A stretch of 64,000 bases of DNA from a candidate division WOR-3 bacterium UBA1063 (GCA_002316275.1 DCDE01000035.1:1661-65660); one strand, 5' to 3'; positions 5,607 to 53,662 are shown, numbered from the stretch's first letter. Made by a program: numbers and translations. The notes: generated by a model not told the origin, from the letters alone.

Positions 5607-5692
5607 TTTCCCTCCGTATGGCGTTAAGTATACATCTTAATGTGAAAAAAAATGCACAATGAAACATCGGCTAAACTGTTAGAGGAAAGAAT

Positions 5693-6940: not shown

Positions 6941-6950
6941 ACAACCTCCT

Positions 6951-22745: not shown

Positions 22746-23035
22746 GAATAGACATTTTCCTTAAAAAGACAGGTATAAGTGCTTCAAGAACAAGAACAAA
22801 GAATATAAATATCACGGTAAATGGTCAAAGGAAGAAACCTTCATATGAAGTTCGAGTATACGATATCATTGAGATTACCGACGGTGCGGGGAATCATATG
22901 CAGTTGGAGGTGCTTGGAATCCCTTCTTCCTCCATCTCCAAAGATGAACGAGAAAAATATATCAAAGTTTTGAAAAAGGGAAAAGTTCCAGTTTCAAACG
23001 AGAATTTTCTAAAATGGCTATTCGAAAATTATTGA
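22742..23035 (+). CDS. S4-domain RNA-binding protein (Hsp15/RqcP-like)
   Basis: N-terminal MRIDIFLKKTGISASRTRTK matches the S4 alpha-L motif. Confidence 0.5.
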   Translation: MRIDIFLKKTGISASRTRTKNINITVNGQRKKPSYEVRVYDIIEITDGAGNHMQLEVLGIPSSSISKDEREKYIKVLKKGKVPVSNENFLKWLFENY

Positions 23036-24318: not shown

Positions 24319-24335
24319 CTTATAATTCAAACATT

Positions 24336-26125: not shown

Positions 26126-27600
26126 GACTTGTGAGATGTCCACGATGTAATACATTTAACTCCCCCAATGTTCACGAATGCGCTACCTGTGGTTTTGATC
26201 TCAATTATTGTTTCTGTTCAAAATGTGGGACCAAAATAAAAATAGGCACTGAAAAGTGCCCTAATTGCGGTTCAGACAATGAGAAGCTCCTCTTTGCACC
26301 ATTTCCTGTAAAGAAAATCGTGGATCCAAAGTACCTTATCAAGTCCATAGAAGTCCATGGCACGATTCTTAAGGAGGTAAACCCTAATTTGATAAAGATT
26401 CAGACAGATTCAGCCATTCTCGAGTTTTATAATTCCAGCGGGAATTTGTATGATAGTATCGAAGTTGGAAAAAATTCATTCCTCCCTTTGATAGAGAAGC
26501 CAACAGAACTTAGAAAAATTTCACAAATCTGGCAAGAGCTCGGGGATGAGGCAAGAATCACATTTATTAAGTCATTAATAGAGAGAATCTCCGGTTTTAA
26601 CCTCTATTTCCCTGAACGACTGGAAGATATCGTTTTTGACGAAAGGTATAGGCCTTGCTTCCCAGTACTTGAGCACAAAGAGAAAGGGTATATTGACTCA
26701 AAAGATTTCCTATGTAACATCCTTCGCATCCTTAAAGGGTATGAAGGCTCTCTATGGGAAAATGAAAAAAACGAAATTATTAGAAAAAAATGTGAAGCTT
26801 ACATTTTCATCAATTGGCTTGACGAAATAAAACAAAAAATACACATGAATTCTGTAAGCTATGCAGGAATCAGTGATAAAGGCCCTACACGGACAAAGAA
26901 TGAAGATGCTATTTTAATGATTGAATCGTCTTACAAAACTTATGCTGCTGAGAATTTAGATGCAAAAAAACAATATCTTTTCGTACTTTCGGATGGCCTT
27001 GGTGGACACGAGAGAGGCGAGGTAGCCGCAGAGCTAATTGTCGATGGTATAAGTAAAGAATTCTACAAGCATCTGTTACCTAAAAGTAACATAGAATTAG
27101 AAGATATAGTGGAATCCATTGGGGTTGTGAACAATTATGTATATTCAAAGAACACACAAACTGAGATGACTATGCAACGAATGGGCGGTACCATCTCTGG
27201 ACTCTTAATCGATAGAGACCGATTCATGGTATTCAATGTGGGAGACTCGCCAATTTTTCTTCTCAACGACGAGGACATCACAGAACTTTCCATCCGTGAT
27301 ACCTCTACCAAGAAAAACAAAGCCATTACTCAAGCAATAGGTATAAGGCCTTTCGACGAGATCGAAGTGCATATTAATGAATTGCAAATACCATGGGAAA
27401 AATTCAAAGTACTAATCTGCTCTGATGGTTTAACTGATGTCGTGACTCCTGTTAAAATAGCCAGTATAATTAAAAGCTGTAAGAAAAACCTACGTGAAGC
27501 TTGCTTAAAGCTTTTAGAAGAAGCGCACGAAAAGAAAAGTAGTGATAACGTAAGTGTGATTGTAGTAAATGTAGAGAAAGAAATCGTAATAGGAAGGTAA
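26122..27600 (+). CDS. double zinc-ribbon + PP2C-family Ser/Thr phosphatase
   Basis: Zinc ribbons CPRC...CATCG and CSKCG...CPNCG. PP2C motifs TRTKNEDA, FVLSDGLGGHERGEVAAE, CSDGLTDVV. 4-nt overlap with the FHA gene. Confidence 0.8.
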   Translation: MRLVRCPRCNTFNSPNVHECATCGFDLNYCFCSKCGTKIKIGTEKCPNCGSDNEKLLFAPFPVKKIVDPKYLIKSIEVHGTILKEVNPNLIKIQTDSAILEFYNSSGNLYDSIEVGKNSFLPLIEKPTELRKISQIWQELGDEARITFIKSLIERISGFNLYFPERLEDIVFDERYRPCFPVLEHKEKGYIDSKDFLCNILRILKGYEGSLWENEKNEIIRKKCEAYIFINWLDEIKQKIHMNSVSYAGISDKGPTRTKNEDAILMIESSYKTYAAENLDAKKQYLFVLSDGLGGHERGEVAAELIVDGISKEFYKHLLPKSNIELEDIVESIGVVNNYVYSKNTQTEMTMQRMGGTISGLLIDRDRFMVFNVGDSPIFLLNDEDITELSIRDTSTKKNKAITQAIGIRPFDEIEVHINELQIPWEKFKVLICSDGLTDVVTPVKIASIIKSCKKNLREACLKLLEEAHEKKSSDNVSVIVVNVEKEIVIGR

Positions 27601-27603
27601 CAT

Positions 27604-29685
27604 GTGAAGAGATGCTCTGTGTGTGGAAAGGATAATCAGGATAATGCGTTATTTTGTGCCTTTTGCGGAAATAAATTTGATCAAAATACTTGCAAAGTAT
27701 GCGGTCAAGCAAACCCGCCTGGAGAATTGTTTTGTGTAAGGTGCGGGAACCCTATAATTGAAGGTTTACTCATAATAGAAAATAGATATAAGCTAATTAA
27801 GAAAATAGGCGTGGGTGGGTTCGGAAAGACATATCTCGCGGAGGACCTTCAACTTTTCGGCAAAAAAGTTGTAATTAAAGAATTCTCAATGAAATCTGCA
27901 AAATTTGACGAATTCATCAAATTTACTCAGCAAGAGGGAATGATACTTGCTAAACTAAACCACCCCCAGATACCAAAAATCCATGGATTCCTTGAAGACA
28001 AAAAGAATTCAAAGATTTATCTAATTCAGGACTTTGTTGAGGGAAAGAATCTCCGGCAACTCCTCACGGAAAGAACAAAACTGGAAGAAGATGAGGCAAT
28101 CATCATTTTAAAAGACACCTTGGATATACTCAGTTACCTACATTCCTTTAACCCTTCTTTACTCCACCGAGATATTAAACCCGAGAATATCATCGTAGAC
28201 CAAAATGGAAAAGCATATTTAGTCGATTATGGCGCAGTGATAGAATATCACGGTGATAAAAAAGACAGGGAAATTATGTACACCAAGGGCTATGCTTCAC
28301 CTCAGCAGAAGCAGGGCTTTTCATCTCCATCGAGCGACCTATACTCCCTCGGGATTGTTGCCATAGAAATCCTAACAGGGCTAACTCCTGACAAGTTTAA
28401 AAACGAAGAGACAGGAATTGTTGATTACTCAGTTATAAACGATATGAGCGTCGAATTGAGAGATTTCCTTGTAAAAATGACAAAACTGTCTACTTCTGAT
28501 AGATTCAAAAATGCCTCCGAAGCAAAAAATGCTCTCGAAGTGATTGAAAAAATCAGAACTCTCAGAGACATAAAGATTTCACAATATCACGGGAAAATCG
28601 GTGAGAAAGAAAGAAAAGACATAATAGATATGGCAAAAAAGTTAAATATCAGTCTAGACTTAATAAATAAGGTACTCGAAGAAGAGAAACATAAGATAGA
28701 AACGAAAGATGCATATAAAAAGGAAGTCTCGCCTTCATCCCCCTTTATTACAAGACTCTCTATAGTTTCCCAAGCTACTGGAGTCACAACTTGCAAGTTG
28801 ATCGGAAAAGTGCAAGCTCATCAAGGGTTAGCAATAAAAGTTGTTTTCTCTCCAAAGGGTGAATATATGCTTACAGCCGGGGCTGATGGAGTAATTAAAG
28901 TCTTTGGGACGACCCAATGGGAAAGAAAAATTTCTATTAAGGCGACTACTGATGATGATACTTTGACAGATATGAAAATGTCACCAAATTCACAATACCT
29001 TGTAGTATCAGCAAAATCTGGAAACATCAAATTCTTCGAAACTTCTTTCTGGACAAGACTCAACGTCGTCCACATTCAAAATGACGAAATCTCTGAAATT
29101 ACTTTCTCGCCCGACTCTAGACTGCTTTTTGTGGGTGGGTACGAAAAGGCAATATCCATTTTCGATATGATGAAGGTAGAAAAAACCGTTAATTTAACAG
29201 GACATGAAACTTGGATCAGCTGCTTAGAACATTCCCCAAAGGATAGATTGCTAGTATCAGGTGCCTGGGATGGCAGCGTCTTTATGTGGGATACACAAGA
29301 AATGAAATTAAAAAAATCTTTCAAGGAACATACGGGGCAGGTAAAGAAGATCCGATTTGCAAATTCTGGTAGATTCTTCGTTACTTCAGCGAATGACGGA
29401 TTAATTAACATATGGGACCCCTCCTCATTAACCATCGTTAAAAGGTATCAAATCTCTGAAGATTCGAGACAAATAATAGATATTGCTATTACCCCAAATG
29501 AGAAATACCTGCTGATTGCCTCGGAGAGGCGTGTATTAGTCATTGGATTAGACCTAATGGACAAGAAAATGGAAGTAGACCTTCAAACAAGAAAATGCAC
29601 AAGTATCAGCTTTTTCCCTCAAAAAAATTATTTTGCTACGAGTGATATCGACGGAATTATAAAACTATGGAAACTATCCATTTAG
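27604..29685 (+). CDS. double zinc-ribbon + Hanks-type Ser/Thr protein kinase + C-terminal WD40 beta-propeller
   Basis: GTG start 3 nt after the phosphatase stop. Zinc ribbons CSVCG...CAFCG and CKVCG...CVRCG. Kinase motifs GVGGFGKTY, VVIKEF, HRDIKPENI, DYG, GYASPQQ. WD40 repeats from ~aa 400 (GADGVIKVFG, SGAWDGSVFMWD, SANDGLINIWD, TSDIDGIIKLWK). Confidence 0.85.
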   Translation: MKRCSVCGKDNQDNALFCAFCGNKFDQNTCKVCGQANPPGELFCVRCGNPIIEGLLIIENRYKLIKKIGVGGFGKTYLAEDLQLFGKKVVIKEFSMKSAKFDEFIKFTQQEGMILAKLNHPQIPKIHGFLEDKKNSKIYLIQDFVEGKNLRQLLTERTKLEEDEAIIILKDTLDILSYLHSFNPSLLHRDIKPENIIVDQNGKAYLVDYGAVIEYHGDKKDREIMYTKGYASPQQKQGFSSPSSDLYSLGIVAIEILTGLTPDKFKNEETGIVDYSVINDMSVELRDFLVKMTKLSTSDRFKNASEAKNALEVIEKIRTLRDIKISQYHGKIGEKERKDIIDMAKKLNISLDLINKVLEEEKHKIETKDAYKKEVSPSSPFITRLSIVSQATGVTTCKLIGKVQAHQGLAIKVVFSPKGEYMLTAGADGVIKVFGTTQWERKISIKATTDDDTLTDMKMSPNSQYLVVSAKSGNIKFFETSFWTRLNVVHIQNDEISEITFSPDSRLLFVGGYEKAISIFDMMKVEKTVNLTGHETWISCLEHSPKDRLLVSGAWDGSVFMWDTQEMKLKKSFKEHTGQVKKIRFANSGRFFVTSANDGLINIWDPSSLTIVKRYQISEDSRQIIDIAITPNEKYLLIASERRVLVIGLDLMDKKMEVDLQTRKCTSISFFPQKNYFATSDIDGIIKLWKLSI

Positions 29686-38834: not shown

Positions 38835-40286
38835 ATGAAGATACTCTGGTTGGATGACGAGATAGAATTCCTACAACCTCATATTATGTTTCTGGAAAGC
38901 GAAGGGCTAAAAGTCATTGGGGTAGATCACCCATTAAAAGCCCTGGAATTAGCAAAATTAGAGGCCTTTGATGTAATTCTTGTTGACTATAAAATGCCGC
39001 AGATTTCAGGAATTGAATTTGCCAGAGAAATAAAGAAAATGCATCCTAATATACCCCTGGTCCTCATAACAATGGTTCAGGATAAAGAGGTAATGGATGA
39101 AGCTTTATCCATCGACGTGTTTGATTACCTTGTAAAACCTGTACACCCTTCGCAGATCATGGCGGTCTTAAAAAAGCTGGAGCGAGACAAACTTAAAGAT
39201 CGGTCTGAAACACGTAGAATACTGGACTATTACAACATGCTTAACTCCCTTGGAAACAAATGGAAAGATTGGCTTGAAAAGGGAAGCATACTATTTAACT
39301 GGATGGTAGAAAGTCCTGAAGATGATTTGTTAAAAGAAGAAAGAAAATCAAAGAGTCTTGAATATGCTACGTGGATTATAGAAAATATGCCTTCTTTACT
39401 CGCTGATGACGAAGTTCCCTGGATTTTCAAAGTTTTTAAAAATGAAATAATTCCACTGCTACAAAACAGTGAACGAGTTACAGTTTTAGTTTTTGATAAT
39501 TTCCGATACGATCAGGCTCTCGACCTTTCTCAAACTATCCCCTCTTCATACAGGCTTGAAATTAAACCGATTTTTTCTGTGATTCCAACCGCCACACAAT
39601 TCGCAAGAAACTCCTTCTTTTCGGGGCATACTCCTTTTGACACAGATAGAAGAAATCAAGGATGGCTTCGGGATAACCTCCATGAAAAGGAGCTTCTTGA
39701 GCAAAACCTCGTTGAAAATAGCATAAGAAATTTATCGTTATTTGTAAAAAAAATAAACACTCTCGATGCTTTAAAGCAGGAATCCTTTCAGCATGGTGCG
39801 AAGTTAGAAGTATACGTTATAAACTTCTTTGACATGATCTTTCACCTTAGAGAAGAAGAATCGCCCCTCAGAGGACTTATCAAAAATGCTGAAGATTATT
39901 TAAATCTGTGTAAATTCATTTTAGAGACCTCTAAATTCCTTGAAAAATTAAATGTGCGACACATTTTCATTACCACGGATCACGGGTGGGTAAAAGGAGA
40001 AAAAGCTGTCGTGATTCAGGGAGGAGCAGAGGCAACCGAAGGGCTTAGATTCAAATTTGGTGATTCTCTAAAAGCCATAGAGGGTAAACCTATCGAGCTT
40101 TCCGACCTAAAGAGCTACGGAATCCCTCAAATTTCGAGACACCTTTTTTTAGCAAAAGGTTATGACTATTTTGTATACCAAAGTGACCCAGGAAAATATA
40201 AAAGAAAATATAAAGGGGGCCTGTATCACGGGGGAGTGAGCATCGAAGAGATGATCATACCCTTGATCAAACTGAGAAAAGGTTAA
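38835..40286 (+). CDS. porX: PorX-like response regulator (CheY-type receiver fused to PglZ alkaline-phosphatase-superfamily domain)
   Basis: REC domain with acidic pocket (LWLDDE...DVILVDYKMP...), conserved Thr/Lys region, PglZ-like C-terminus (HIFITTDHGW...GLYHGGVSIEEMIIPLIKL). Architecture matches the T9SS regulator PorX. No histidine kinase adjacent. Confidence 0.65.
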   Translation: MKILWLDDEIEFLQPHIMFLESEGLKVIGVDHPLKALELAKLEAFDVILVDYKMPQISGIEFAREIKKMHPNIPLVLITMVQDKEVMDEALSIDVFDYLVKPVHPSQIMAVLKKLERDKLKDRSETRRILDYYNMLNSLGNKWKDWLEKGSILFNWMVESPEDDLLKEERKSKSLEYATWIIENMPSLLADDEVPWIFKVFKNEIIPLLQNSERVTVLVFDNFRYDQALDLSQTIPSSYRLEIKPIFSVIPTATQFARNSFFSGHTPFDTDRRNQGWLRDNLHEKELLEQNLVENSIRNLSLFVKKINTLDALKQESFQHGAKLEVYVINFFDMIFHLREEESPLRGLIKNAEDYLNLCKFILETSKFLEKLNVRHIFITTDHGWVKGEKAVVIQGGAEATEGLRFKFGDSLKAIEGKPIELSDLKSYGIPQISRHLFLAKGYDYFVYQSDPGKYKRKYKGGLYHGGVSIEEMIIPLIKLRKG

Positions 40287-40287
40287 T

Positions 40288-41934
40288 TTACCTGAGCACA
40301 CCTATAAGTTCCCTCTTAATAAAAGTTTCGCCTTCAGGCGTACGTGCCTTAATTAACAAGATGTACATCCCCTCATCGAGAGTCTTACGATTAATTTCAG
40401 GCTGAACTACAAAGGTATACCTTCCATCAACCAAAACCTTGTTCTCGAAAAAGCATGTTACTTTTCTGCCATCGATCCTATACATTTCTGCTGTTACATA
40501 AACCGGAGCCTTCGGGAATTCCAGATCAGCCATCAAAACTGGAATCCCGCGCCCGGGTGCTAGGACCTTTGAAGAAAGGGATAATATAGCTTTACTTTCG
40601 GGGGGTTTTAAAAAGAGGCTGTTTTTTCTACCAGGGGTAGACCCTTCCTTAGAAGAGCCCCAATTGTATCGAGAATCAGATGGTAAAGCGTAGGAGAGCC
40701 GTTCTAAGGATAGGTTGCTCCCTCCTCCCCAGGTAGCAAGATAAGGCACCATATCCATTATAGAACCTGTTACATCGTAAAGGAACACAGTATCTCCCGT
40801 ATTGTTCAACGAAGGAAAATTAGCCAATACCAAACAATCAACAGCATCCAGTGGTTTCGGAGAAAAGACAACATATCCATCAGGTTGAAGCCAGAAACTC
40901 TCAGGCACTGGCTGCGACCTCCTAACGGGGTCTCCGATAGAAAAACTAAGAAGGTTTATCGAATCTTTAGAGCAATTGTAAACCTCAACCCATTCAACAT
41001 CAGCATTGTACATTATCTCATTTATGACCACAGGACTCTGCCCCACAAAAAACCCAATGCTGGTATCATAAAATACCGAATCTCCCGCATCACAAATCTG
41101 GATTCTAAAATATGCCACGTAATTCCCTGGAGTGAATGTAAAAGGGCCCAGATCAACAATAGATGAAGAATCAGGCGGTAGATTCACATATTTATCTTCG
41201 TAACCTTCTGGGTAACTCTCGCCAAAATTAAAAAAGAGGCGAAGATGTCCTAATGATTCAACACCCATATTCAAAAGAGACAAAAAAAACTTCACATCAT
41301 ACTCACCTTGCCGAGTATATCGAACCTCATTAATTTTCATACAGTATGGTCGAGATACGGAATTTATGAACCCACACGTATTACCAGAAGGCGCATCAGA
41401 ATACCTCCAGTTTGTACTTACATCTGGTCCAAAATAATACTTTCTCTCGAAACTGATTCCATCCTTAGAACGCAAAGGAAATCCACTTCCCGCTCCAAAA
41501 CTGGAAACTACCTGCCCATCTAAAGTGCATAAAGCAATAGTGTCATTGTACGATAAACCATTCCCGAGGTCCGCGTCCATAGTCGTAATGACTGCAACCG
41601 AATCAGGAAGCTCGTAAGGCATGAAACTTTCCCCCTCTATTACGTACTCCCTGTCAAGAATCACTCCGTAAGATTGGGGCGGGATTTTTGTGGTGGCTTT
41701 CACCTCTGGATAATAACGTAAAATCTCCACAAAAGGAACAAGGGAGTCAACATCGTTGTTATCTCTCAATTTATAACGGGCAATATTAATGGTATCCTCT
41801 GAAGGGTTAAATATTTCAATAAACTCATTTCTGTCCCCTGGAGATAGAGCCCCCGATTCGGGACCAAGGGGGTCCAGCATAATCTCTGTCATAATAGGAT
41901 GAGTAATGAGCACAAGTAAAATAGTGGGAATCAT
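40288..41934 (-). CDS. secreted protein with two lamin-tail (LTD) domains and T9SS CTD
   Basis: Start trimmed to ATG 41934 (MIPTILLVLITHP, signal-peptide-like), which forms an ATGA overlap with the dtd stop. LTD signatures NEFIEIFNPSEDTINIARY and VVINEIMYNADVEWVEVYNCS. C-terminal CTD-like MYRIDGRKV...GMYILLIKARTPEGETFIKRELIGVLR. Confidence 0.55.
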   Translation of the reverse strand: MIPTILLVLITHPIMTEIMLDPLGPESGALSPGDRNEFIEIFNPSEDTINIARYKLRDNNDVDSLVPFVEILRYYPEVKATTKIPPQSYGVILDREYVIEGESFMPYELPDSVAVITTMDADLGNGLSYNDTIALCTLDGQVVSSFGAGSGFPLRSKDGISFERKYYFGPDVSTNWRYSDAPSGNTCGFINSVSRPYCMKINEVRYTRQGEYDVKFFLSLLNMGVESLGHLRLFFNFGESYPEGYEDKYVNLPPDSSSIVDLGPFTFTPGNYVAYFRIQICDAGDSVFYDTSIGFFVGQSPVVINEIMYNADVEWVEVYNCSKDSINLLSFSIGDPVRRSQPVPESFWLQPDGYVVFSPKPLDAVDCLVLANFPSLNNTGDTVFLYDVTGSIMDMVPYLATWGGGSNLSLERLSYALPSDSRYNWGSSKEGSTPGRKNSLFLKPPESKAILSLSSKVLAPGRGIPVLMADLEFPKAPVYVTAEMYRIDGRKVTCFFENKVLVDGRYTFVVQPEINRKTLDEGMYILLIKARTPEGETFIKRELIGVLR

Positions 41935-42368
41935 AACTCGAGAACGAAGGTTACAGGCCCATAATTCAGTAGTTCTATTTCCATCCTCGCCTGAAAAACG
42001 CCTCTTTGAACTTTTACTCCAGATGATTCCATGAGGGCGCACAGTTTCTCGTAGAAAATACGCGCATTATCAGGACTCATACAATTATCAAAAGATGGCC
42101 TTCGACCCTTTTCAACGTCACCTTCAAGAGTGAAATTAGGAACCACAAGAACTTCAAAACCTTTATCTTGCACAGAGAGATTCATCTTCCCCTCACTGTC
42201 TTCAAAAATGCGTAATTCGACAATTTTTTTAGATACTTTGCTGAGTTTCTCTTCACTATCCTCTCTTGAAAAACCAACAAGCACAAGCAAACCTTCTGCA
42301 ATTGAGGAGATCTGGGTTCCATTTGCTCTGACCTTCGCCCACAAAACCCTTTGTACAACTGCTTTCAT
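41931..42368 (-). CDS. dtd: D-aminoacyl-tRNA deacylase
   Basis: 145 aa. MKAVVQRV...LLVLVGF...NFTLEGD motifs of the DTD fold. Confidence 0.85.
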   Translation of the reverse strand: MKAVVQRVLWAKVRANGTQISSIAEGLLVLVGFSREDSEEKLSKVSKKIVELRIFEDSEGKMNLSVQDKGFEVLVVPNFTLEGDVEKGRRPSFDNCMSPDNARIFYEKLCALMESSGVKVQRGVFQARMEIELLNYGPVTFVLEL

Positions 42369-46436: not shown

Positions 46437-49286
46437 ATGAAAAAATATACAAGAATCATAATACTTCTTATATTTTCAACCCTGCACTCCGAAACCATAG
46501 ATGGCGTCTTTCCCCTTCCTGGATACTCCAATGGCTATTATGCCTATGGCTTGGCTTTTGATGGCGAGTACCTTTGGATTGGTGATGACTACAATGGAAT
46601 GATTTACAAGATGGATACCCTTGGTAACGTCATTTCCTCATTTATGGGCATTACGGGATCAAACCACGGCCTTGCATGGGATGGAGAGGGTCTGTGGTGT
46701 GCAGGGGATTACAGTGTCACTCATCTCATAAAATTTAATCCATATGGAAGCAGAATAGATTCGGTAGCAGAAAACTGGCAATACATAGGTGGCCTAGGAT
46801 ATAACGGGAACCAGATCCTGGTAACAGTATATTATCCTAACACTAATAACAACATCTACCTTTTAGACCCCGCTACTGGTATTACCATTGGTACTGTTTC
46901 ATCGCCGGGGACACAGCCCCAGGGTGTCACCTTTGATGGTCAATACATCTGGGTTGTAATGGATGATAATGATGGAGATCCGGAGAGGGTGTGGAAGATA
47001 GATCCCGCCACAAGTGAAACGTTAATGAGTTTCCCTGTTCCAACAACAAGTCCTCGTGGCTTAGCCTGGTCTGGGACGCATCTCTGGCTTATTGCAATGA
47101 ACTCAGAAGGGTCAGGGGGTGTAGTCTACAAAATTAACCCATATGGGGGTGGAGTCCCTGAAATTTCACTAAACATAACTTCATATGACTTTGGGAATGT
47201 AATATTAGGTGAGGCAGAGACCCTCAAAATCGTATGCACAAACATTGGAAGTAGTGAATTATCCATCGATTCGACAAAGAACAACACACCTGCCTTTTCT
47301 GTCCTAAATATTTTCCCAATTATGATTCCACCATCAAACTCTGATACTCTTTTTGTTGTATTTTCTCCACCAGGCACAAATACTTACAGTGATACACTAT
47401 CTATATTTTCAAATGACCCTATGCACGATAGTGTAGCAGTCTCTCTACGTGGCACTGGTGTATCCAGTGGCCAAGACATCGATGTAGCAGACACCATCCT
47501 TACGTGGGATGCATGCCGCACTGGGGCATCTAAAAGGAAATGGCTTAACATTGCGAATCTTGGCTCTGCTACGCTCACTGTCGACAGCGTAAGATCTTCT
47601 TCTGCCACTTTTATGACAACCTCAGCTACACCATTCAATATAGATCCATCTTCCCAAGAAGCCATCGATATCTGGTTTTCACCTGAACTTGAACTTTCTT
47701 ATATCGACACTCTCTATATTTACAGCAATGATCCCGATGAAGAGACATTAATGGTTTATCTTAATGGCACAGGGGTAGATACAACATATTCAGGAGGAGA
47801 TATAATATGGTACTACTATGCGCGTGGCGGTTCCGTTTACAACCACATAAGGTCAATAAAATCGATATCCGATATAAACAACGACGGTAAAGATGATGCC
47901 GTGGCGGTTTCTGAAAACGACACCCTCTACCTAATTCACGGCAATGGATTCCAGGAGGGAGATCCGATTTGGAAACTCGCTTGTGGCACATGCTACACTG
48001 AGCACGGACTTACAGTAGTCCCAGACCTGAATGACGATGGATATGAGGACGTCGTGCTGGGAACTATTTGGGGAAGCAGGAAAGTTTTTGCAATTTCAGG
48101 CAAGGACGGGAATGTGTTATGGCAATACGATATGCATCAATATGGTGACGGGGGTTGGGTTTACGAGGTATCTTACGCACCAGACATTAATGGTGATGGT
48201 ATAGTGGAAATCCTCGCTGCAGCTGGTAATGACTCTTACGATACGGGACCTAAAAGAGCTTTCATGTTTGATGGAGCCACAGGAACAGTTATATGGCAAA
48301 CATATCTTACATATTCCGGTTTTTCAGTGAGAGTCATAGGAGACATTAACAACGATGGATACCCTGAAGTAGCGACAGGCACGGGGAACGGAAGTACATA
48401 CGCCTATTGGATATACCTTCTTAGTGGCTTAACGGGTAATATAATATGGAGTAAGAATGTCTCAGGAGCAGTATGGACTGTCATTCCACTTCAGGATATT
48501 AACGATGACGGTATACCAGACATTGCTGCCGGATTAGGAAATGGGCAGGTAATTGCATTAAACGGAATCAACGGAAATATCCTTTGGACTTACACTATGG
48601 GCGGCATTGTGACCGATCTCAATGCACTGAGAGACGTTAACGGTAATGGTTACTTTGAACTACTCCCAGCAGGTGCAGCGATCTCGAACTTCGTAGCCAT
48701 TGATTCCAGAACAGGTACTCCAGTCTGGAGTTTCAATTCGGGAGATGCTGTCTTTAGCATGGTTGAAATTCCTGACATAAGTGGTGATGGTAAAAATGAA
48801 GTAATTGGCGGTACAGGGTATAATGTGAACCGGCTTGCATTAATAGATGGTGCTACTGGCAATATGATTTGGAGCAAGACTATGCAAAGCCCCGTAGAAA
48901 CAGTCTACCCAATAAAAGACATTGATGCCAATGGTACTTCTGATATATTAGTTGGCCTTCGAAACGGGGATATATTATGCGTAGCCTCAGGACCAATAGT
49001 TGGTATACAGGATAGTCAACAGATTGGCATAGATTTGGCAAGAATAAACTCTAATATAGTAAAAGAGGGCAGTAAAATATCACTAACGCTTCTTGGTGGC
49101 GGTATGACATGTGTAGAAATTTTTGACGTTTCAGGAAGATGCGTTGCCACCCTTCTTAATCAGTTTTTAACAAAAGGCACACACAATATTCCACTTGAAC
49201 TCGATTTTCTACCTAATGGTGTTTATTTCATACGAATTCGACAACACGAAAGTATATACAGTTTTCGCATTCTTAAAATCCTTTAG
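46437..49286 (+). CDS. large multi-domain T9SS cargo: N-terminal propeller-like repeats, two choice-of-anchor-D/ASH-like beta-sandwiches, 8 FG-GAP-like repeats, CTD
   Basis: Signal peptide. GLAWDGEGLW-type repeats x4. DFGNV...TNIGSSELSI beta-sandwich signatures. Eight D-h-N-x-D-G-x-x-D FG-GAP-like loops (DINNDGKDD, DLNDDGYED, DINGDGIVE, ...). CTD ending NGVYFIRIRQHESIYSFRILKIL. Confidence 0.65.
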   Translation: MKKYTRIIILLIFSTLHSETIDGVFPLPGYSNGYYAYGLAFDGEYLWIGDDYNGMIYKMDTLGNVISSFMGITGSNHGLAWDGEGLWCAGDYSVTHLIKFNPYGSRIDSVAENWQYIGGLGYNGNQILVTVYYPNTNNNIYLLDPATGITIGTVSSPGTQPQGVTFDGQYIWVVMDDNDGDPERVWKIDPATSETLMSFPVPTTSPRGLAWSGTHLWLIAMNSEGSGGVVYKINPYGGGVPEISLNITSYDFGNVILGEAETLKIVCTNIGSSELSIDSTKNNTPAFSVLNIFPIMIPPSNSDTLFVVFSPPGTNTYSDTLSIFSNDPMHDSVAVSLRGTGVSSGQDIDVADTILTWDACRTGASKRKWLNIANLGSATLTVDSVRSSSATFMTTSATPFNIDPSSQEAIDIWFSPELELSYIDTLYIYSNDPDEETLMVYLNGTGVDTTYSGGDIIWYYYARGGSVYNHIRSIKSISDINNDGKDDAVAVSENDTLYLIHGNGFQEGDPIWKLACGTCYTEHGLTVVPDLNDDGYEDVVLGTIWGSRKVFAISGKDGNVLWQYDMHQYGDGGWVYEVSYAPDINGDGIVEILAAAGNDSYDTGPKRAFMFDGATGTVIWQTYLTYSGFSVRVIGDINNDGYPEVATGTGNGSTYAYWIYLLSGLTGNIIWSKNVSGAVWTVIPLQDINDDGIPDIAAGLGNGQVIALNGINGNILWTYTMGGIVTDLNALRDVNGNGYFELLPAGAAISNFVAIDSRTGTPVWSFNSGDAVFSMVEIPDISGDGKNEVIGGTGYNVNRLALIDGATGNMIWSKTMQSPVETVYPIKDIDANGTSDILVGLRNGDILCVASGPIVGIQDSQQIGIDLARINSNIVKEGSKISLTLLGGGMTCVEIFDVSGRCVATLLNQFLTKGTHNIPLELDFLPNGVYFIRIRQHESIYSFRILKIL

Positions 49287-49340: not shown

Positions 49341-52300
49341 TTACGATGTGCTATTCGATTTAATTCTCTCTGCCCAGTATGGTACCGATAGCTTTTTGAA
49401 AACTGATATAGCTTTGCGCCTGTAATTTTCCGCTCTCTTAAGGTCCCCTGCTTTCTCAAGACAGTTTGCATACTCAGCATATGTTCTCGCTAAGTCATAA
49501 CGATGTCCTATGTTACGAAGGATCGAAATGGCTTCCTCAAAATCCCTTTCAGCTTCTTTGTAATGCCCATTTGCAGTTTTAACTTTACCTGACAACATTA
49601 GGCGCCTCGCGGCCAGCGCAGGTTGCTGTTCGTCTCTACATTTACGAACTAAATAGGCGATTTGTCTTTCTGAAATCCTCTCACCTTTCGCCATTCGAAT
49701 TTCGTATAAAACTAATTTAAATCTTTGGTATAATCCAACTCCATCAATTTTTTTGATCAACTTTGCCAGTTTATTGCAAGCATATTCAGCCTTATCTAGG
49801 TCGCCAGAATCTAAAAACATGAACGCAAGTGAAACATAAACTTCTGCAATATTTTTATTGAGCTTCAACGATTCAAAAATCTCTAAGCTCTTCAAAAAAT
49901 ATGATTCCGACAAATTAAATTCACCAATTGAATAATATACAGTACCTATTTGTGCCAGTACTACAGCTTTTAAATAAGGCATGTTAATCTTCTCAGACAA
50001 ACTCAAGGCTTTTGTAAGAAGCTTCAAAGCTTTACGGAAGTAACCCAAATCCAAAAAATCAATACCCAAACTCAGAAGAGAAAACGCTTCCGTATTTTTA
50101 TCTTTAATCTCTCTCGCCATTTTCAAAGTCTTACGGTGTATTTCGATTGCCCTCTTACAATTCCCCGTTTCATTAAAAATTATTCCCAAGTTTCTTAGAG
50201 CAGAAAGTTCGGAAGCCACATTTCCAGTTATGTGAAGGATGTTCGCGCTTTTCTCAAAATAAGTTTGGGCTTTTGAAAAGTCAGGCTCTCGAAATAAATA
50301 TGTAACACCAATGTTATGTAAAATAGATCCCTGAATCCGTAAATATCCAATTCTTTCTGCAGCTTCAAGCGCAGCGTTGTACAATTCCAGTGCCTTATCT
50401 AAATTACCATACATAGAATATGTTGAAGCAATATCGCACAATACGCTTATCTTATTCCGCTCATCGTGAAGCTCTTCATAGATTGCGGAAGCTTTCCTAA
50501 ACCACTCTAAGGCTTCTTCGTGACAGCACGTTCGATCATATATAACACCTTTATATCGCATGGCATTTGCTAAGATATCTTGCCTTCCTGCACTCGAAGC
50601 AAGCTCCATTGATTTATCTAAGTAAGCTTGAGCAACATTATACTTTGCAAGATCACTGTAGCAAAGCCCCATTCCCAAATATGATAAAGCCATCCCACCG
50701 GAGTCTTTCAAACCCTCAAAAATGTTATAAGCCTGCTTAAATTTATCGATTGCATCAAAAAACCTTGCGGTTTTTTCAAGAATATATCCAAGATTACAGA
50801 GAGCCGGAGCTTCAAGGCTCTTATCTCCAATTAACTGAGCAAGCTTGATCGCCTCTTCACAATTTGCGATAGCCTTTTCAGGTTCGCCTAGCAAGTTGTA
50901 TACATCAGCCAGCTTGTTGAGGATATTAATTTTCTTAATCTCTTTCTCCTCTATATCCTTGGAACTATCAAGGCAATCGATAGCCCATGAACAGTATTTA
51001 GCAGCTTCCCGATATGAGTAGAGTTCTATAGCTTTTTCTATAGATTTCATACAAAAATCAATTGCATTTGAAAAATCACCACTTTTATAGTAATGATACG
51101 CAATTTCTTCAAGATCTTCAGGGAATAGCTCCCTAAGCACTTCAGCAACCATATGATGCATAACCCTTCTTCGCTCCCCATCCATCCAGAAATAAATTGC
51201 ATCCCTAACAATATCTGCTGTAAAGTTATATTTGTATGAATCGGTCTTCTCAATGAAACCCAACTTTATTAGCTGGTCAAGAATTTCATTAAGTACGCCA
51301 TAATCCATTCTGGATATTTCTTTAACTAATTCGAGATTGAATGGTCTTCCAAACACTGACAAAATTTCTAATAAATAGGATTGCACTTCATTAAGATTAG
51401 ATAATCTCATTTCAACGACTACATTAATGGAATCGGGAATATTATCGCTAATCTCCGTTCTAAATTCCCATCTATCATGAGCCCAGTAAATATCTCCTGT
51501 GGAAACCATATATTTAATGAGTTCATACAAAATATACGGATTCCCACCACCCTTTGCAACCAAAAATCTGGTGAATTCCTCGGGCACATCCTGCCCGAGC
51601 ACACAAGTTATAAGTTGATGCACTCCCTCTATTTTAAGCGGACCTAAATCTATAATCAGAGATGGTGCCTCTCTTACAATATTTGTAATCAATTTAGAGA
51701 GAGTCTCTTCTCTGTGCATTTCCTCGATCCTCGATGTAAAAATCATAGGCACTTTGTCCGCGATCGACGACCTCGCTATAAAATGAAAAACCTCAAGGGA
51801 ATGTAAATCTGCCCACTGCACGTTGTCGACAAATAGTAACAGTGTACGCCCAGCGTTAGTTACTATCTCTAAAACATCTTGTATTGCATCGAATAACCTA
51901 AACTTATCAATAACATATACAGGTTCCTCATTTTTTTCGCCTAAGGGAGGAAATAATTTAGAAATTTCCCCCATAGAACTTGCAGATAACTTACTAAAAA
52001 GTTCTACATTCTCTTTTACAAGTTGCTTTAATATTGCCCTCACAGAATAGAGGATTACAGACTGTGTCACAGGTGATAGGGTTACTTCAACCTTGATAAA
52101 GTCAGAAAGCTGAGGATAATTCAGAACTTCTTTTACTAACCTAGTTTTTCCTATACCAATTTCACCCTTAACCAATACAAATCCACCAGGCTGCCCTTTA
52201 CTGGTGAGAAAGGAAATAATTTTGGCCACTTCTTCTTCTCTTCCAATGAGGTCGTGAGTTGGAATAGAGAGGGTTTTTAACTTATCAAGGGTCCCTATCC

Positions 52301-52778
52301 TACTTCTTCCTTGCCTTTTCGCAGCCAGAAGGCTCCTATCCGCCAATTCGAAGAGCTTATCCCATGTATCAGCGTGGTATTGAAAAGAGGCTATACCTGC
52401 ACTTGCTGTTAATTTTATCTTACTAAACTCCCTTTCTTTGCACCGTGCCAATATCCTTTCTACAATTTTTATTGCTTCTTCATATTCAACATCAAAAAGA
52501 ATTGCAATAAATTCGTCTCCACCATACCTAATTACAATATCTTCCATTCGAAGTGAACTTTTCAAAAACTCAGTAAATTCCCTTAAAACTAAATCCCCAA
52601 CGCTATGACCATAAAAATCATTTACCCTCTTAAAATAATCGACATCAAAAATCACCAGTTGGAAAGTCCTACCCTCAGAACGAGTCTTCTCTATTAATTC
52701 ATCAATTTTTTCTTCTAAGAAAGCCCTATTATATACACCCGTTAATGTGTCGACATATAAGCGCTTATTCTCTTTCAT
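49341..52778 (-). CDS. GGDEF diguanylate cyclase fused to STAND-type (AAA_16-like) NTPase and C-terminal TPR array
   Basis: N-terminal GGDEF with RYGGDEF A-site and upstream RMED (RxxD I-site). Walker A GEIGIGKTRLV. Walker B LLLFVDNVQWAD. Roughly 600 aa of TPR-like repeats. Confidence 0.75.
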   Translation of the reverse strand: MKENKRLYVDTLTGVYNRAFLEEKIDELIEKTRSEGRTFQLVIFDVDYFKRVNDFYGHSVGDLVLREFTEFLKSSLRMEDIVIRYGGDEFIAILFDVEYEEAIKIVERILARCKEREFSKIKLTASAGIASFQYHADTWDKLFELADRSLLAAKRQGRSRIGTLDKLKTLSIPTHDLIGREEEVAKIISFLTSKGQPGGFVLVKGEIGIGKTRLVKEVLNYPQLSDFIKVEVTLSPVTQSVILYSVRAILKQLVKENVELFSKLSASSMGEISKLFPPLGEKNEEPVYVIDKFRLFDAIQDVLEIVTNAGRTLLLFVDNVQWADLHSLEVFHFIARSSIADKVPMIFTSRIEEMHREETLSKLITNIVREAPSLIIDLGPLKIEGVHQLITCVLGQDVPEEFTRFLVAKGGGNPYILYELIKYMVSTGDIYWAHDRWEFRTEISDNIPDSINVVVEMRLSNLNEVQSYLLEILSVFGRPFNLELVKEISRMDYGVLNEILDQLIKLGFIEKTDSYKYNFTADIVRDAIYFWMDGERRRVMHHMVAEVLRELFPEDLEEIAYHYYKSGDFSNAIDFCMKSIEKAIELYSYREAAKYCSWAIDCLDSSKDIEEKEIKKINILNKLADVYNLLGEPEKAIANCEEAIKLAQLIGDKSLEAPALCNLGYILEKTARFFDAIDKFKQAYNIFEGLKDSGGMALSYLGMGLCYSDLAKYNVAQAYLDKSMELASSAGRQDILANAMRYKGVIYDRTCCHEEALEWFRKASAIYEELHDERNKISVLCDIASTYSMYGNLDKALELYNAALEAAERIGYLRIQGSILHNIGVTYLFREPDFSKAQTYFEKSANILHITGNVASELSALRNLGIIFNETGNCKRAIEIHRKTLKMAREIKDKNTEAFSLLSLGIDFLDLGYFRKALKLLTKALSLSEKINMPYLKAVVLAQIGTVYYSIGEFNLSESYFLKSLEIFESLKLNKNIAEVYVSLAFMFLDSGDLDKAEYACNKLAKLIKKIDGVGLYQRFKLVLYEIRMAKGERISERQIAYLVRKCRDEQQPALAARRLMLSGKVKTANGHYKEAERDFEEAISILRNIGHRYDLARTYAEYANCLEKAGDLKRAENYRRKAISVFKKLSVPYWAERIKSNSTS

Positions 52779-52930: not shown

Positions 52931-53662
52931 ATGTTTAATTTGATGTTCTGTTTAATTTTAATGTCCTCTAATATAGCATTATTAGCAAAAGGGGACTCAC
53001 TGTTTGCACTTCTAAAATATGAAGAAGCCCTTAAAGTATATGAGACAGCTTACCGAGAAAACAGCGGCGATTACGAAACCCTCTGGAGGCTTGCAATGGT
53101 TTATTTAAGCCTGGGAGAGGAGTTAAAAGATAAAAAAGTGGCTCAAAAAAATTATGACTTAGCGTTAAACTACGCTAAAAAGGCTACAAAAGTAAATCCT
53201 GACGGGGATTGGGGGTGGACTTTTTTTGCAGCCGTTAATGGGGTAACTGCTCTTTCCGTAGGAGGGAAAGAAAAAGTAAAATATGCAATGATAATCAAGG
53301 AAGCAGTGAACAAGGCGCTCAGTATCAATCCGAATAATGACCTAGCAAATTTTATATGGGGATCATACAACTTTGAAGCAGCAACACTCAATCCTATGTT
53401 GAGGAGTTTTGCAAAAACTATATTTGGGGAGGTCCCGGAGGGTACAATTGAGAATGCGGAAAAGTACATCAAAAAAGCTACACTTTTAAATCCTGCGAGA
53501 ATTCAGTACCACTACGAACTTGCAAGGGTTTACGAATACCAAGAAAAAATTGATGAGGCGAAAAACACCCTGAGGAAAGCAATTAGTCTTAAACCGCAGA
53601 TAAGAGAAGATATCAAGTACCTCGAGAAAGCAAAAAAAATGCTCCAGAAATTGGAGAAGTAA
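52931..53662 (+). CDS. secreted TPR-like helical-repeat protein
   Basis: Start moved to the internal Met giving signal peptide MFNLMFCLILMSSNIALLA (track ORF begins at 52895). Helical repeats; C-terminal KAISLKPQ... Confidence 0.4.
   Translation: MFNLMFCLILMSSNIALLAKGDSLFALLKYEEALKVYETAYRENSGDYETLWRLAMVYLSLGEELKDKKVAQKNYDLALNYAKKATKVNPDGDWGWTFFAAVNGVTALSVGGKEKVKYAMIIKEAVNKALSINPNNDLANFIWGSYNFEAATLNPMLRSFAKTIFGEVPEGTIENAEKYIKKATLLNPARIQYHYELARVYEYQEKIDEAKNTLRKAISLKPQIREDIKYLEKAKKMLQKLEK

What the first reader, a model, noticed from the sequence alone, without database searches (positions are those of the whole stretch)
49341..52778. 1145-aa single-chain GGDEF - STAND ATPase - TPR protein: diguanylate cyclase as the effector of a STAND-type sensor
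Seen in sequence:
- N-terminal GGDEF with an intact A-site (RYGGDEF) and an RxxD I-site (RMED five residues upstream).
- Immediately after it, a P-loop NTPase with Walker A GEIGIGKTRLV and Walker B LLLFVDNVQWAD (AAA_16/STAND-like).
- Then roughly 600 aa of TPR repeats.

Established knowledge: STAND proteins oligomerise on ligand binding through their C-terminal repeat sensor, and GGDEF domains are active only as dimers.

Inference: ligand-induced STAND oligomerisation would be a direct way to switch c-di-GMP synthesis on. The protein is cytoplasmic (no TM) and divergently transcribed from a small secreted TPR protein. A c-di-GMP-producing STAND is an unusual effector combination worth characterising.
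Basis: partly seen in the sequence, partly recalled or inferred. Interest (0 to 1): 0.65.

Follow-up and report, generated by a model that had tools for sequence, protein, structure and literature searches.

The report
c-di-GMP synthase fused to STAND switch
This gene encodes a cytoplasmic enzyme that makes the bacterial messenger c-di-GMP, fused to an NLR-like ATP-driven switch and a long TPR sensor; the design is real and uncharacterised, but it is common in uncultured bacteria and closely parallels known cyclase-STAND fusions.

Summary
ORF 49341-52778 (-) encodes a 1145-aa protein with three parts:
- an N-terminal GGDEF domain (residues 8-160)
- a P-loop NTPase of the AAA_16 type (177-337 by Pfam)
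- about 15 TPR hairpins, running to residue 1143

- The GGDEF domain is canonical. Every PleD catalytic, guanine-binding and I-site residue is present, and these are 62/62 invariant in the family.
- The central module folds as a STAND NOD (NBD, helical domain, winged helix). Its best PDB matches are PH0952, MalT and ADP-bound Apaf-1.
- Its closest sequence relatives outside the family are adenylate-cyclase or kinase fusions to the same AAA_16-TPR chassis.

The combination is not rare. More than 130 of the top 150 50%-identity clusters share the GGDEF-NOD fusion, mostly from WOR-3/Hydrothermia, TA06, Aegiribacteria and Omnitrophota. Databases label them "diguanylate cyclase" or "TPR protein". 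I found no paper that characterises them.

The ten loci examined are chromosomal and housekeeping, not defence islands.

Activation by ligand-triggered oligomerisation that pairs GGDEF domains is the most likely mechanism, but it remains inference.

Verdict: a new variant of a known kind, of moderate interest.

The parts
49341..52778 (-). Complete CDS, 1145 aa: GGDEF - STAND NOD - arm - TPR sensor
52299..52757 (-). GGDEF diguanylate cyclase domain (residues 8-160). It starts 7 residues from the N-terminus, with no stalk helix before it.
   Evidence: Pfam 1e-41; TIGR00254; PleD and DosC alignments; the DxLTG motif starts at residue 6-26 in the 55 of 62 family members where the pattern was found
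52509..52523 (-). A-site GGDEF (residues 86-90), equivalent to PleD GGEEF 368-372
   Evidence: 62/62 invariant
52539..52550 (-). Primary I-site RxxD (R77-M-E-D80), equivalent to PleD R359/D362. R108 (PleD R390) is also conserved.
   Evidence: R108 at 90% or more
52251..52298 (-). Short linker (residues 161-176) with invariant P173, tethering the GGDEF domain to the NBD
51645..52250 (-). Nucleotide-binding domain of the NOD (residues 177-378), five beta-alpha units
   Evidence: AAA_16 6e-17; AF2 secondary structure; Foldseek
52134..52166 (-). Walker A GEIGIGKTRLV (residues 205-215); K211 kept in 62/62
51807..51842 (-). Walker B LLLFVDNVQWAD (residues 313-324). D318 is kept in 62/62. The next residue is Asn here and in 44/62 members, Asp in 18/62.
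51720..51737 (-). TSRIEE (residues 348-353). R350, at the end of strand 4, is the sensor-1-like Arg, kept in 61/62.
51495..51644 (-). Helical domain (residues 379-428) with the GGNP (GxP) motif at 51537-51548
51216..51494 (-). Winged-helix domain (residues 429-521), the STAND-specific third NOD subdomain
   Evidence: AF2 secondary structure; Foldseek to MalT, Apaf-1 and PH0952 over about 430 columns
51015..51215 (-). Arm-like helical hairpins (residues 522-588) with conserved H541 and H562
   Evidence: arm defined as in PMC6468293
49350..51014 (-). TPR sensor (residues 589-1143), about 13-14 hairpins. This is the least conserved region, with 26-28% mean pairwise identity.
52943..53662 (+). Divergently transcribed small TPR/RMD1-3-like protein. 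The ORF could start at TTG 52895. It stays adjacent in the two closest orthologous loci, at 73% and 69% identity.

Best explanation
The gene encodes a soluble cytoplasmic diguanylate cyclase whose regulatory input is a STAND (NLR/MalT-type) molecular switch.

Shown:
- The N-terminal GGDEF domain carries every residue needed for GTP binding, catalysis and product feedback.
- It is tethered by about 15 residues to a NOD (NBD, helical domain, winged helix), followed by an arm and a TPR solenoid of about 14 repeats.

Inferred mechanism:
1. In the resting state the NOD is closed around ADP, and the arm and TPR pack on the NBD. The protein is monomeric, so its single GGDEF half-site cannot make c-di-GMP.
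2. A cytoplasmic ligand binds the TPR sensor. It is most likely a peptide or protein, given the LGN/Pins-like TPR_12 repeats. Binding releases autoinhibition.
3. ADP is exchanged for ATP and the NOD multimerises.
4. The N-terminal GGDEF domains are brought together in antiparallel pairs, and c-di-GMP synthesis starts.
5. The conserved RxxD/R108 I-site caps output by product inhibition.
6. The Asn after the Walker B Asp may slow ATP hydrolysis and prolong the ON state.

The protein belongs to a large uncharacterised family in WOR-3/Hydrothermia and neighbouring candidate phyla. The family reuses the NOD-TPR chassis also found behind class III cyclases and Ser/Thr kinases.
For: Enzyme identity:
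- Pfam and TIGRFAM GGDEF scores are far above threshold.
- Residue-by-residue mapping to PleD: D45=D327, N53=N335, D62=D344, R77/D80=R359/D362, R84=R366, GGDEF=GGEEF 368-372, R108=R390, K154=K442, R158=R446.
- All of these except R108 (90% or more) and R158 (R 47, K 14) are 62/62 invariant.

STAND identity:
- AAA_16 at 6e-17, with sub-threshold NB-ARC and nSTAND6 hits.
- The AF2 models are confident (pLDDT 89.4 and 84.7) and show the NBD-HD-WHD order.
- The full-length Foldseek top hit in the whole PDB is the STAND-TPR protein 6mfv, E 5e-15 over 777 columns.
- NOD-only hits: 6mfv 9e-12, MalT 8bob TM 0.64/0.66, ADP-bound Apaf-1 TMq 0.59-0.60, then Avs3, NRC4, CED-4 and NRC2.
- The best TM-scores are to resting or closed forms.
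- Conserved across the family: Walker A, Walker B Asp, R350 and GGNP.

Shared chassis:
- TIGR03903 kinase/cyclase fusion matches residues 177-726 at 1e-36.
- A NOD-TPR protein that JGI names 'adenylate cyclase' aligns over residues 159-1011 at 2e-62.
- The nearest NODs on plasmids are annotated as adenylate/guanylate cyclase domain proteins.

Signalling, not conflict:
- The ten loci examined are chromosomal with housekeeping neighbours.
- There are no PADLOC system hits.
- No phage or plasmid copy was found.
- The conservation gradient is effector 48%, NOD 36%, sensor 26-28%.
- The GGDEF domain sits at the extreme N-terminus with no stalk helix, so control must come from the C-terminal side.

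Established knowledge:
- STAND NODs toggle between a closed ADP form and an open ATP multimer (PMC6468293).
- GGDEF domains need two GTP-loaded domains to dimerise before catalysis (PMC7825114 abstract).
Against: - No experiment or multimer model was available, so oligomerisation, ATP dependence and ligand are all inferred.
- STAND rings are often odd-numbered or helical, which does not map neatly onto GGDEF pairs.
- The His of the WHD 'MHD'-type motif that contacts ADP in Apaf-1 and NLRs has no clear counterpart. Position 521 is Ala here and Glu in 53/62.
- By sequence, no solved STAND is detectably related beyond the P-loop.
- Neighbourhoods give no consistent clue to the ligand or the output pathway.
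- No PilZ, EAL or HD-GYP gene lies in the 64-kb window.
Confidence: 0.6

Rival explanations
1. The protein is an active diguanylate cyclase, but the NOD-TPR is not a ligand-triggered oligomeriser. It would serve as a constitutive dimerisation, scaffold or localisation module, or as a sensor of cellular ATP/ADP. Regulation would come mainly from expression level and I-site feedback.
For: - Walker B+1 is Asn in 44/62 members, which may mean little ATP turnover.
- The MHD-type His is not conserved.
- TPR arrays often act as scaffolds.
- No conserved partner or ligand-related gene occurs across the family.
Against: - Walker A Lys, Walker B Asp, R350 and GxP are essentially invariant over sequences that are otherwise only about 36% identical. 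This argues for selection on a working nucleotide switch.
- The fold matches closed, resting STANDs.
Confidence: 0.2
2. Information flows the other way. The GGDEF domain would mainly be a GTP or c-di-GMP receptor acting through its I-site. It would control NOD opening, and the TPR array would be the output that recruits partner proteins.
For: - RxxD and R108 are invariant or nearly so.
- GGDEF domains acting as receptors are known. The title and abstract of PMC9061725 describe a GGDEF domain working through protein interaction.
Against: - All catalytic residues, not just the I-site, are 62/62 conserved. That is unexpected for a pure receptor.
- In characterised STANDs the repeat domain is the sensor and the terminal domain is the effector (PMC6468293).
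Confidence: 0.07
3. This is an anti-phage or conflict STAND (Avs-like pattern-recognition receptor). Its TPR would bind a foreign protein, and its output would be a burst of c-di-GMP.
For: - Avs3 is among the structural matches.
- TPR-like sensors bind phage proteins in Avs.
- GGDEF occurs rarely as a nucleotide-signal generator in the vWA-MoxR (VMAP) conflict systems of PMC7159879.
Against: - There is no PADLOC system match.
- All ten loci have housekeeping neighbours, stable synteny among orthologues, and no defence or mobile genes.
- No phage or plasmid copy was found.
- A conserved feedback I-site limits output.
- Paralogues appear to share a contig: P0006/P0057 and P0040/P0060 have matching longest-contig lengths.
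Confidence: 0.05
4. The GGDEF domain makes a different product, such as cGAMP or c-di-AMP as in Hypr GGDEFs.
For: The best PDB sequence match is the Geobacter Hypr GGDEF 6d9m.
Against: In that alignment the PleD D344-equivalent position (my knowledge: the residue that sets Hypr specificity) is Ser in 6d9m. It is Asp (D62) here and in 62/62 family members.
Confidence: 0.03

Closest known systems
Class III adenylate/guanylate cyclase - AAA_16 - TPR proteins (mycobacterial Rv0386 type; NCBIfam TIGR03903 TOMM kinase/cyclase fusion)
   Same: - Same layout: an N-terminal nucleotide cyclase that needs dimerisation, then an AAA_16 NOD, then TPR.
- The NOD-TPR part is homologous (TIGR03903 1e-36 over 177-726; AAA_16-TPR proteins carrying PF00211 listed; plasmid hits).
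- A TA06 contig encodes both versions about 5 kb apart (...).
- The catalytic domains are distant homologues (Pei and Grishin 2001, cited).
   Different: - The effector is GGDEF, which makes c-di-GMP and has an I-site, not a class III cyclase making cAMP or cGMP.
- There is no C-terminal LuxR HTH.
- It falls far below the TIGR03903 cutoff (126 against 706 bits).
- From my own knowledge, how the holoenzyme is regulated is still unsolved for those cyclases too.
E. coli MalT (STAND transcription activator; PDB 8bob)
   Same: - NOD fold, TM 0.64/0.66.
- TPR_MalT Pfam hit at 80 bits against a cutoff of 45.
- NOD, arm and helical-repeat sensor in the same order.
- Presumed cycle from closed ADP form to open ATP multimer.
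   Different: - MalT's effector is a C-terminal DNA-binding domain and its inducer is maltotriose.
- Here the effector is an N-terminal enzyme and the ligand is unknown.
- Sequence similarity is undetectable by a profile search of the PDB.
Pyrococcus horikoshii PH0952 (PDB 6mfv), a STAND with a TPR sensor
   Same: - Best structural match in the PDB for both the full-length and the NOD-only model.
- N-terminal effector, then NOD, arm and TPR.
- A resting, ADP-bound, doubly autoinhibited architecture.
   Different: - PH0952's effector is an ArsR-like DNA-binding domain.
- It has only 6 TPRs.
- It is archaeal, and identity is 17-18%.
PleD, WspR and DgcZ-type diguanylate cyclases
   Same: The full catalytic and I-site residue set is present. 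Activity is presumably limited by GGDEF dimer formation.
   Different: - In most DGCs (my knowledge) the sensory input is N-terminal and acts through a helical stalk in a dimer.
- Here the GGDEF domain is at the extreme N-terminus, and the input module is C-terminal and STAND-type.
Giant Ser/Thr kinase - AAA_16 - TPR - GAF - GGDEF proteins (C. thermocellum 1826 aa; Tissierella sp. P1 locus L016)
   Same: GGDEF and an AAA_16/TPR module sit in one polypeptide (PMC1262709).
   Different: - There the kinase is the N-terminal domain.
- The GGDEF domain is C-terminal, behind a GAF domain.
- The proteins are about 1800 aa long.
Avs and bNACHT antiphage STANDs
   Same: STAND NOD plus a repeat sensor; Avs3 appears among the structural matches.
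   Different: - Their effectors are nucleases, proteases and similar toxic domains, in a defence-island context.
- Neither feature is seen here.

Membership tests
GGDEF diguanylate cyclase (catalytically competent, PleD type) | Profile match above the curated threshold | tested here: met
   PF00990 142.7 bits against 23.8; TIGR00254 156.8 bits against 37.4
GGDEF diguanylate cyclase (catalytically competent, PleD type) | GG(D/E)EF A-site plus the metal-binding Asp (PleD D327) | tested here: met
   GGDEF at residues 86-90 and D45; 62/62 in the family
GGDEF diguanylate cyclase (catalytically competent, PleD type) | Guanine-specifying Asn and Asp (PleD N335, D344); not the Ser of Hypr enzymes | tested here: met
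   N53 and D62, 62/62; 6d9m has Ser at that position
GGDEF diguanylate cyclase (catalytically competent, PleD type) | Phosphate-binding Lys and Arg (PleD K442, R446) | tested here: met
   K154 in 62/62; R158 as R 47 and K 14 of 62
GGDEF diguanylate cyclase (catalytically competent, PleD type) | Allosteric I-site: RxxD five residues upstream of GGDEF, plus the R390 equivalent | tested here: met
   R77 and D80 in 62/62; R108 at 90% or more
GGDEF diguanylate cyclase (catalytically competent, PleD type) | Conversion of 2 GTP to c-di-GMP | not testable with these tools
   Needs an enzyme assay
STAND NTPase | P-loop NBD with Walker A and Walker B | tested here: met
   GxxGxGKT and hhhhD are invariant; AAA_16 63.1 bits against 32.6
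STAND NTPase | NOD made of NBD, helical domain and a STAND-specific winged-helix domain (definition in PMC6468293) | tested here: met
   AF2 secondary-structure order. Foldseek alignments of about 430 columns to PH0952, MalT and Apaf-1, ranked above ORC/Cdc6 and RuvB.
STAND NTPase | GxP motif in the helical domain and a sensor-1 Arg after strand 4 | tested here: met
   GGNP at 411-414 (G412 in 62/62, P414 in 61/62); R350 in 61/62. That these motifs define STANDs is from my own knowledge.
STAND NTPase | WHD His (MHD/LHD type) contacting the ADP beta-phosphate | tested here: inconclusive
   The expected position 521 is Ala here and Glu in 53/62. The conserved H541 and H562 lie after the WHD. No coordinates were available to inspect.
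STAND NTPase | Arm plus a C-terminal repeat sensor, and an effector at one terminus | tested here: met
   Helical arm at 522-588, TPR at 589-1143, N-terminal GGDEF
STAND NTPase | Inducer-dependent ADP/ATP exchange and multimerisation | not testable with these tools
   Needs biochemistry or a multimer model
NB-ARC (Apaf-1 / plant R protein subfamily, PF00931) | Profile match above the gathering score | tested here: not met
   22.2 bits against 23.5. It is related, but not a member of this subfamily.
TOMM kinase/cyclase fusion protein (TIGR03903) | Equivalog score for the whole protein | tested here: not met
   126.4 bits against 705.75. Only the NOD and early TPR part aligns.
Antiphage STAND (Avs and other PADLOC systems) | Match to a defence-system model | tested here: not met
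   Only generic TPR models and weak hits (E at or above 3.7e-4) to PDC-S27/S39
Antiphage STAND (Avs and other PADLOC systems) | Defence-island or mobile-element context | tested here: not met
   Ten loci with housekeeping neighbours; no phage or plasmid copy

The most novel reading that the evidence does not exclude
This family would be a cytoplasmic NLR-like pattern-recognition receptor. Its variable TPR solenoid would bind a specific protein or peptide, either foreign (phage, competitor) or a self danger or quorum signal. It would answer by assembling a ring in which GGDEF domains pair, so an innate-immunity-type receptor would be wired directly to c-di-GMP. That would give both a new activation principle for diguanylate cyclases and a non-lethal second-messenger output for a bacterial STAND.
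Probability: 0.08. Interest if true: 0.8.

Novelty: new variant of a known kind. Interest (0 to 1): 0.4.

Why it matters
- If the inferred mechanism holds, this family adds a new input logic to c-di-GMP signalling. Activation would come from ATP-dependent higher-order assembly acting from the C-terminal side, not from a dimeric stalk.
- It would also offer a convenient enzymatic read-out (c-di-GMP) for studying how STAND/NLR switches open. Dimer-requiring cyclases attached to STANDs, including the mycobacterial adenylate cyclases, still lack a mechanistic explanation (my knowledge).
- It shows that WOR-3/Hydrothermia and neighbouring uncultured phyla invest in this design, sometimes apparently with paralogues on one contig.
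- The protein is nonetheless already in public databases under generic names. The architecture is predictable from known parts, and nothing here points to unprecedented chemistry or biology.

Tried and rejected
- A profile of the NOD against PDB sequences found nothing beyond P-loop-level hits, all with E above 1e-3.
- The genome-contig scan was swamped by generic GGDEF proteins because RYGGDEF was the most conserved pattern.
  - Only L010 and L011 (Chloroflexia, 1343 aa) looked full-length.
  - L016 (Tissierella) turned out to be the kinase-first architecture.
- Seven of the eight literature searches looked for GGDEF/c-di-GMP together with STAND, AAA_16, NB-ARC or NLR terms; the eighth targeted Rv0386-type cyclases. 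None found a paper on this architecture.
  - Two apparent hits were a catalogue number and an unrelated domain table.
  - The 2026 STAND survey in Nature does not mention GGDEF or cyclases in its main text, and its supplements are not held.
- Rfam found only three tRNAs and no c-di-GMP riboswitch.
- The promoter and terminator scan was no better than shuffles.
- Pfam scans of 34 other window ORFs found no PilZ, EAL, HD-GYP or second GGDEF.
- The other 1144-aa ORF, 6951-10385, is a C25 peptidase and not a paralogue.
- The Hypr (cGAMP) reading was rejected on D62.


Full report
**1. The observation**

The ORF at 49341..52778 on the minus strand starts with ATG and encodes 1145 aa (retranslated).

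Domain scans give these matches:
- GGDEF at residues 8-160 (E 1e-41, 142.7 bits against a cutoff of 23.8).
- AAA_16 at 177-337 (6e-17, 63.1 bits against 32.6). NB-ARC (22.2 against 23.5), ATPase_2 and nSTAND6 hit the same stretch below threshold.
- TPR_12 in seven stretches (1.6e-61) and TPR_MalT (1.9e-22) between about 590 and 1133.
- NCBIfam TIGR00254 agrees on the GGDEF domain, at 156.8 bits.

- GGDEF at residues 86-90.
- RMED at 77-80, exactly five residues upstream.
- GEIGIGKTRLV at 205-215.
- LLLFVDNVQWAD at 313-324.

The highest 19-residue hydropathy is 1.28, so no membrane segment is predicted.

The divergent neighbour (52895/52943..53662, +) is a TPR/RMD1-3-like protein. Its orthologues begin at the equivalent of M17, with only a short hydrophobic N-terminus. 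'Secreted' is therefore unproven.

**2. Is the GGDEF domain canonical?**

The alignment to PleD is gap-free through residue 111, with an offset of +282.

| This protein | PleD | Role | Family conservation |
|---|---|---|---|
| D45 | D327 | metal | 62/62 |
| N53, D62 | N335, D344 | guanine | 62/62 |
| R77, D80 | R359, D362 | I-site | 62/62 |
| R84 | R366 | – | 62/62 |
| GGDEF 86-90 | GGEEF 368-372 | A-site | 62/62 |
| R108 | R390 | I-site | 90% or more |
| K154 | K442 | phosphate | 62/62 |
| R158 | R446 | phosphate | R 47, K 14 |

Conservation figures come from a 62-sequence family alignment.

The best PDB sequence hit is the Geobacter Hypr enzyme 6d9m. It has Ser where this protein has D62. 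From my own knowledge, that position sets Hypr specificity, so this is a canonical c-di-GMP synthase and not a cGAMP-making variant.

**3. Is the middle a STAND, or a generic AAA?**

- A full-length AlphaFold2 model built on the family alignment is confident (pLDDT 89.4, pTM 0.74).
- Residues 177-521 show five beta-alpha units with Walker A after strand 1 and Walker B on strand 3. A small helical domain carrying GGNP follows, then a winged helix.
- Two more hairpins (the arm) and 13-14 TPR hairpins come after that.
- Searched against the whole PDB, the full model's best match is 6mfv, the P. horikoshii 'STAND protein with a TPR sensor' (E 5e-15, 777 columns).
- A separate model of residues 165-590 (pLDDT 84.7) matches these structures:
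  - 6mfv, at 9e-12.
  - MalT 8bob, at 4.5e-11 with TM 0.64/0.66.
  - Full-length and ADP-bound Apaf-1, with TMq 0.59-0.60.
  - Then Avs3, NRC4, CED-4 and NRC2.
  - ORC/Cdc6 and RuvB score lower.
- The highest TM-scores are to resting forms and the lowest to assembled apoptosomes and resistosomes. The model therefore represents the closed state.
- This meets the definition of a NOD given in PMC6468293: NBD-HD plus a STAND-specific WHD, then arm and repeat sensor, with an effector at one end.
- Family conservation points the same way. Walker A Lys and Walker B Asp are kept in 62/62, R350 in 61/62, G412 in 62/62 and P414 in 61/62.

Two details depart from the textbook pattern:
- The residue after the Walker B Asp is Asn in 44/62 members, including this one.
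- The WHD position where many relatives have a His is Ala here and Glu in 53/62.

By sequence alone, no solved STAND is detectable beyond the P-loop.

**4. Relatives and distribution**

- The word-indexed search found an identical protein and about 60 further 90%-identity clusters with GGDEF + AAA_16 + TPR, 1016-1174 aa long. Where they carry a source name, the organism is candidate division WOR-3, TA06 or Aegiribacteria.
- The exhaustive HMMER search with residues 1-590 returned 1341 proteins at E up to 1e-30. Among the best 150 50%-identity representatives, more than 130 align in one stretch from about residue 5 to 589, starting at their own N-terminus. Lengths are mostly 1000-1400 aa.
- Named members include Omnitrophota and a Chloroflexia MAG.
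- The window's own 90% cluster contains NCBI entries from 'Candidatus Hydrothermia/Hydrothermae bacterium' MAGs, annotated only as 'tetratricopeptide repeat protein'. NCBI now places this lineage in Caldifarciminota.
- Just beyond the family lie class III cyclase-AAA_16-TPR proteins, kinase-AAA_16-(TPR/GAF)-GGDEF giants and GGDEF-NOD-TPR-EAL proteins.
- TIGR03903 (TOMM kinase/cyclase fusion) matches residues 177-726 at 1e-36.
- A NOD-TPR protein that JGI names 'adenylate cyclase' aligns from residue 159 to 1011 at 2e-62.
- The NOD-TPR chassis is therefore shared, and the N-terminal effector has been swapped.

**5. Genomic context**

- The two closest orthologues, at 47% and 37-38% identity, keep the divergent small TPR gene, which is itself 73% and 69% identical. 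They also keep a downstream 2-thiouracil-desulfurase/DUF1722 gene.
- The convergent 949-aa FG-GAP/ASH protein with a T9SS sorting domain is kept only in the 47% orthologue.
- Seven more distant members have unrelated neighbours:
  - a hut operon, overlapping the histidine ammonia-lyase gene by 4 bp;
  - type IV pilus genes;
  - MacB-type ABC exporter genes;
  - polysaccharide and cell-envelope genes;
  - Clp/McsB stress genes.
- None of the ten loci carries recognisable defence or mobile-element genes.
- PADLOC gives no system hit.
- tblastn finds no phage or plasmid copy of the fused architecture.
- The rest of the 64-kb window holds no PilZ, EAL, HD-GYP or second GGDEF gene and no c-di-GMP riboswitch.

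**6. Mechanism**

Shown: a complete, conserved DGC active site and I-site; a complete, conserved STAND nucleotide switch; a variable TPR sensor; and a GGDEF domain at the extreme N-terminus with no stalk helix.
- The DxLTG motif starts at residue 6-26 in the 55 of 62 members where the pattern was found.
- The conservation gradient is GGDEF 48%, NOD about 36% and TPR 26-28%.

Established knowledge:
- STANDs rest as closed, ADP-bound monomers. They multimerise after inducer binding and ATP exchange.
- A GGDEF domain contributes only half of the active site and must pair with another (PMC7825114 abstract).

Inference:
- Ligand binding to the TPR releases arm and sensor autoinhibition.
- The NOD opens, binds ATP and multimerises, and the N-terminal GGDEF domains pair and make c-di-GMP.
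- The I-site limits output.
- The Walker B Asp-Asn pair may slow the reset.

The TPR repeats resemble the peptide-binding LGN/Pins type most closely. This hints at a peptide or protein ligand, but it is only a lead.

I put about 0.95 on the identity of the parts and about 0.55-0.6 on this activation scheme.

**7. Rivals**

- A constitutive or scaffold role for the NOD-TPR (0.2).
- Reverse signalling, with the GGDEF domain as a receptor (0.07).
- An anti-phage receptor (0.05).
- A non-c-di-GMP product (0.03).

Each is set out with its evidence in the Rival explanations section.

**8. Comparison and novelty**

- The protein works like MalT and PH0952 (same switch) and like PleD (same chemistry).
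- Its layout mirrors the class III cyclase-AAA_16-TPR proteins.
- It meets the tested membership features of the GGDEF and STAND superfamilies.
- It fails the NB-ARC and TIGR03903 thresholds, and it fails both tested defence-system criteria.
- Seven literature searches aimed at GGDEF/c-di-GMP with STAND-type terms found no paper describing or testing a GGDEF-STAND fusion. The closest mentions are:
  - a 2005 note of a kinase + TPR + GGDEF protein;
  - rare GGDEF effectors in vWA-MoxR (VMAP) conflict systems.
- The searchable library is incomplete, and older STAND surveys in subscription journals could not be checked.
- I rate this a new variant of a known kind. It is uncharacterised and mechanistically attractive. 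It is also abundant in databases, generically annotated, and predictable from known modules. Interest: 0.4.

Noticed in passing
window 23014-29685 (+): An apparent operon: a TPR protein, a vWA protein, a zinc-ribbon/FHA protein, a zinc-ribbon/PP2C phosphatase, and a Ser/Thr kinase with a WD40 propeller. It is a eukaryote-like phospho-signalling cassette, unrelated to the finding.
   Followed up: partly
window 2598-11344 (-): Two tandem C25 (gingipain-type) peptidases of 1002 and 1144 aa, each with a T9SS C-terminal sorting domain. Between and next to them lie a BNR/Ycf48-like protein (5693-6940) and an LVIVD-repeat protein (10382-11344).
   Followed up: partly
window 11359-14215 (-) and 20668-21483 (+): Four ORFs of 320, 270, 361 and 271 aa have no Pfam match at E up to 1e-6.
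   Followed up: no
window 38835-40286 (+) and 40288-42042 (-): A response regulator with a PglZ domain (my reading: like PorX, the T9SS regulator) lies next to a lamin-tail-domain protein. This fits an organism that uses a type IX secretion system.
   Followed up: no
window 51821-51823 (N319 of the Walker B motif, codon at 51822-51824 region) and alignment A2: The residue after the Walker B Asp is Asn in 44/62 family members and Asp in 18/62. The usual second acidic residue is therefore often missing, which may mean slow ATP hydrolysis.
   Followed up: partly
window 52943-53662 (+); L002 9089-9814; L003 7123-7848: The small TPR/RMD1-3-like neighbour is far better conserved (73% and 69%) than the GGDEF-STAND protein itself (47% and 37%) across the same three genomes. 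Its function and location are unknown.
   Followed up: partly
window 46437-49286 (+); L002 13484-16333: A 949-aa protein with ASH/Ig-like domains, FG-GAP/PQQ beta-propeller repeats and a weak T9SS sorting tail. It converges on the 3' end of the GGDEF-STAND gene here and in the 47% orthologue, but not in the 38% one.
   Followed up: partly
L092 7001-10228 and 15155-17228: A TA06 contig encodes a GGDEF-AAA_16-TPR protein and, about 5 kb away, a zinc-ribbon/class III cyclase-AAA_16-TPR protein. Both cyclase versions of the chassis occur in one genome.
   Followed up: no
L008 / L009 6478-11321: One family member (P0041) overlaps the stop of a histidine ammonia-lyase gene by 4 bp. It sits among urocanase, imidazolonepropionase-like and formiminotransferase genes, which suggests co-transcription with a histidine-utilisation operon.
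   Followed up: no
proteins P0137 and P0163 (3225 and 3257 aa): Giant proteins, one of them from an Actinomycetota MAG annotated 'AAA family ATPase' (P0137). Each matches the query in three stretches; the best stretch covers the NOD at about residues 1400-1880 of the protein.
   Followed up: no
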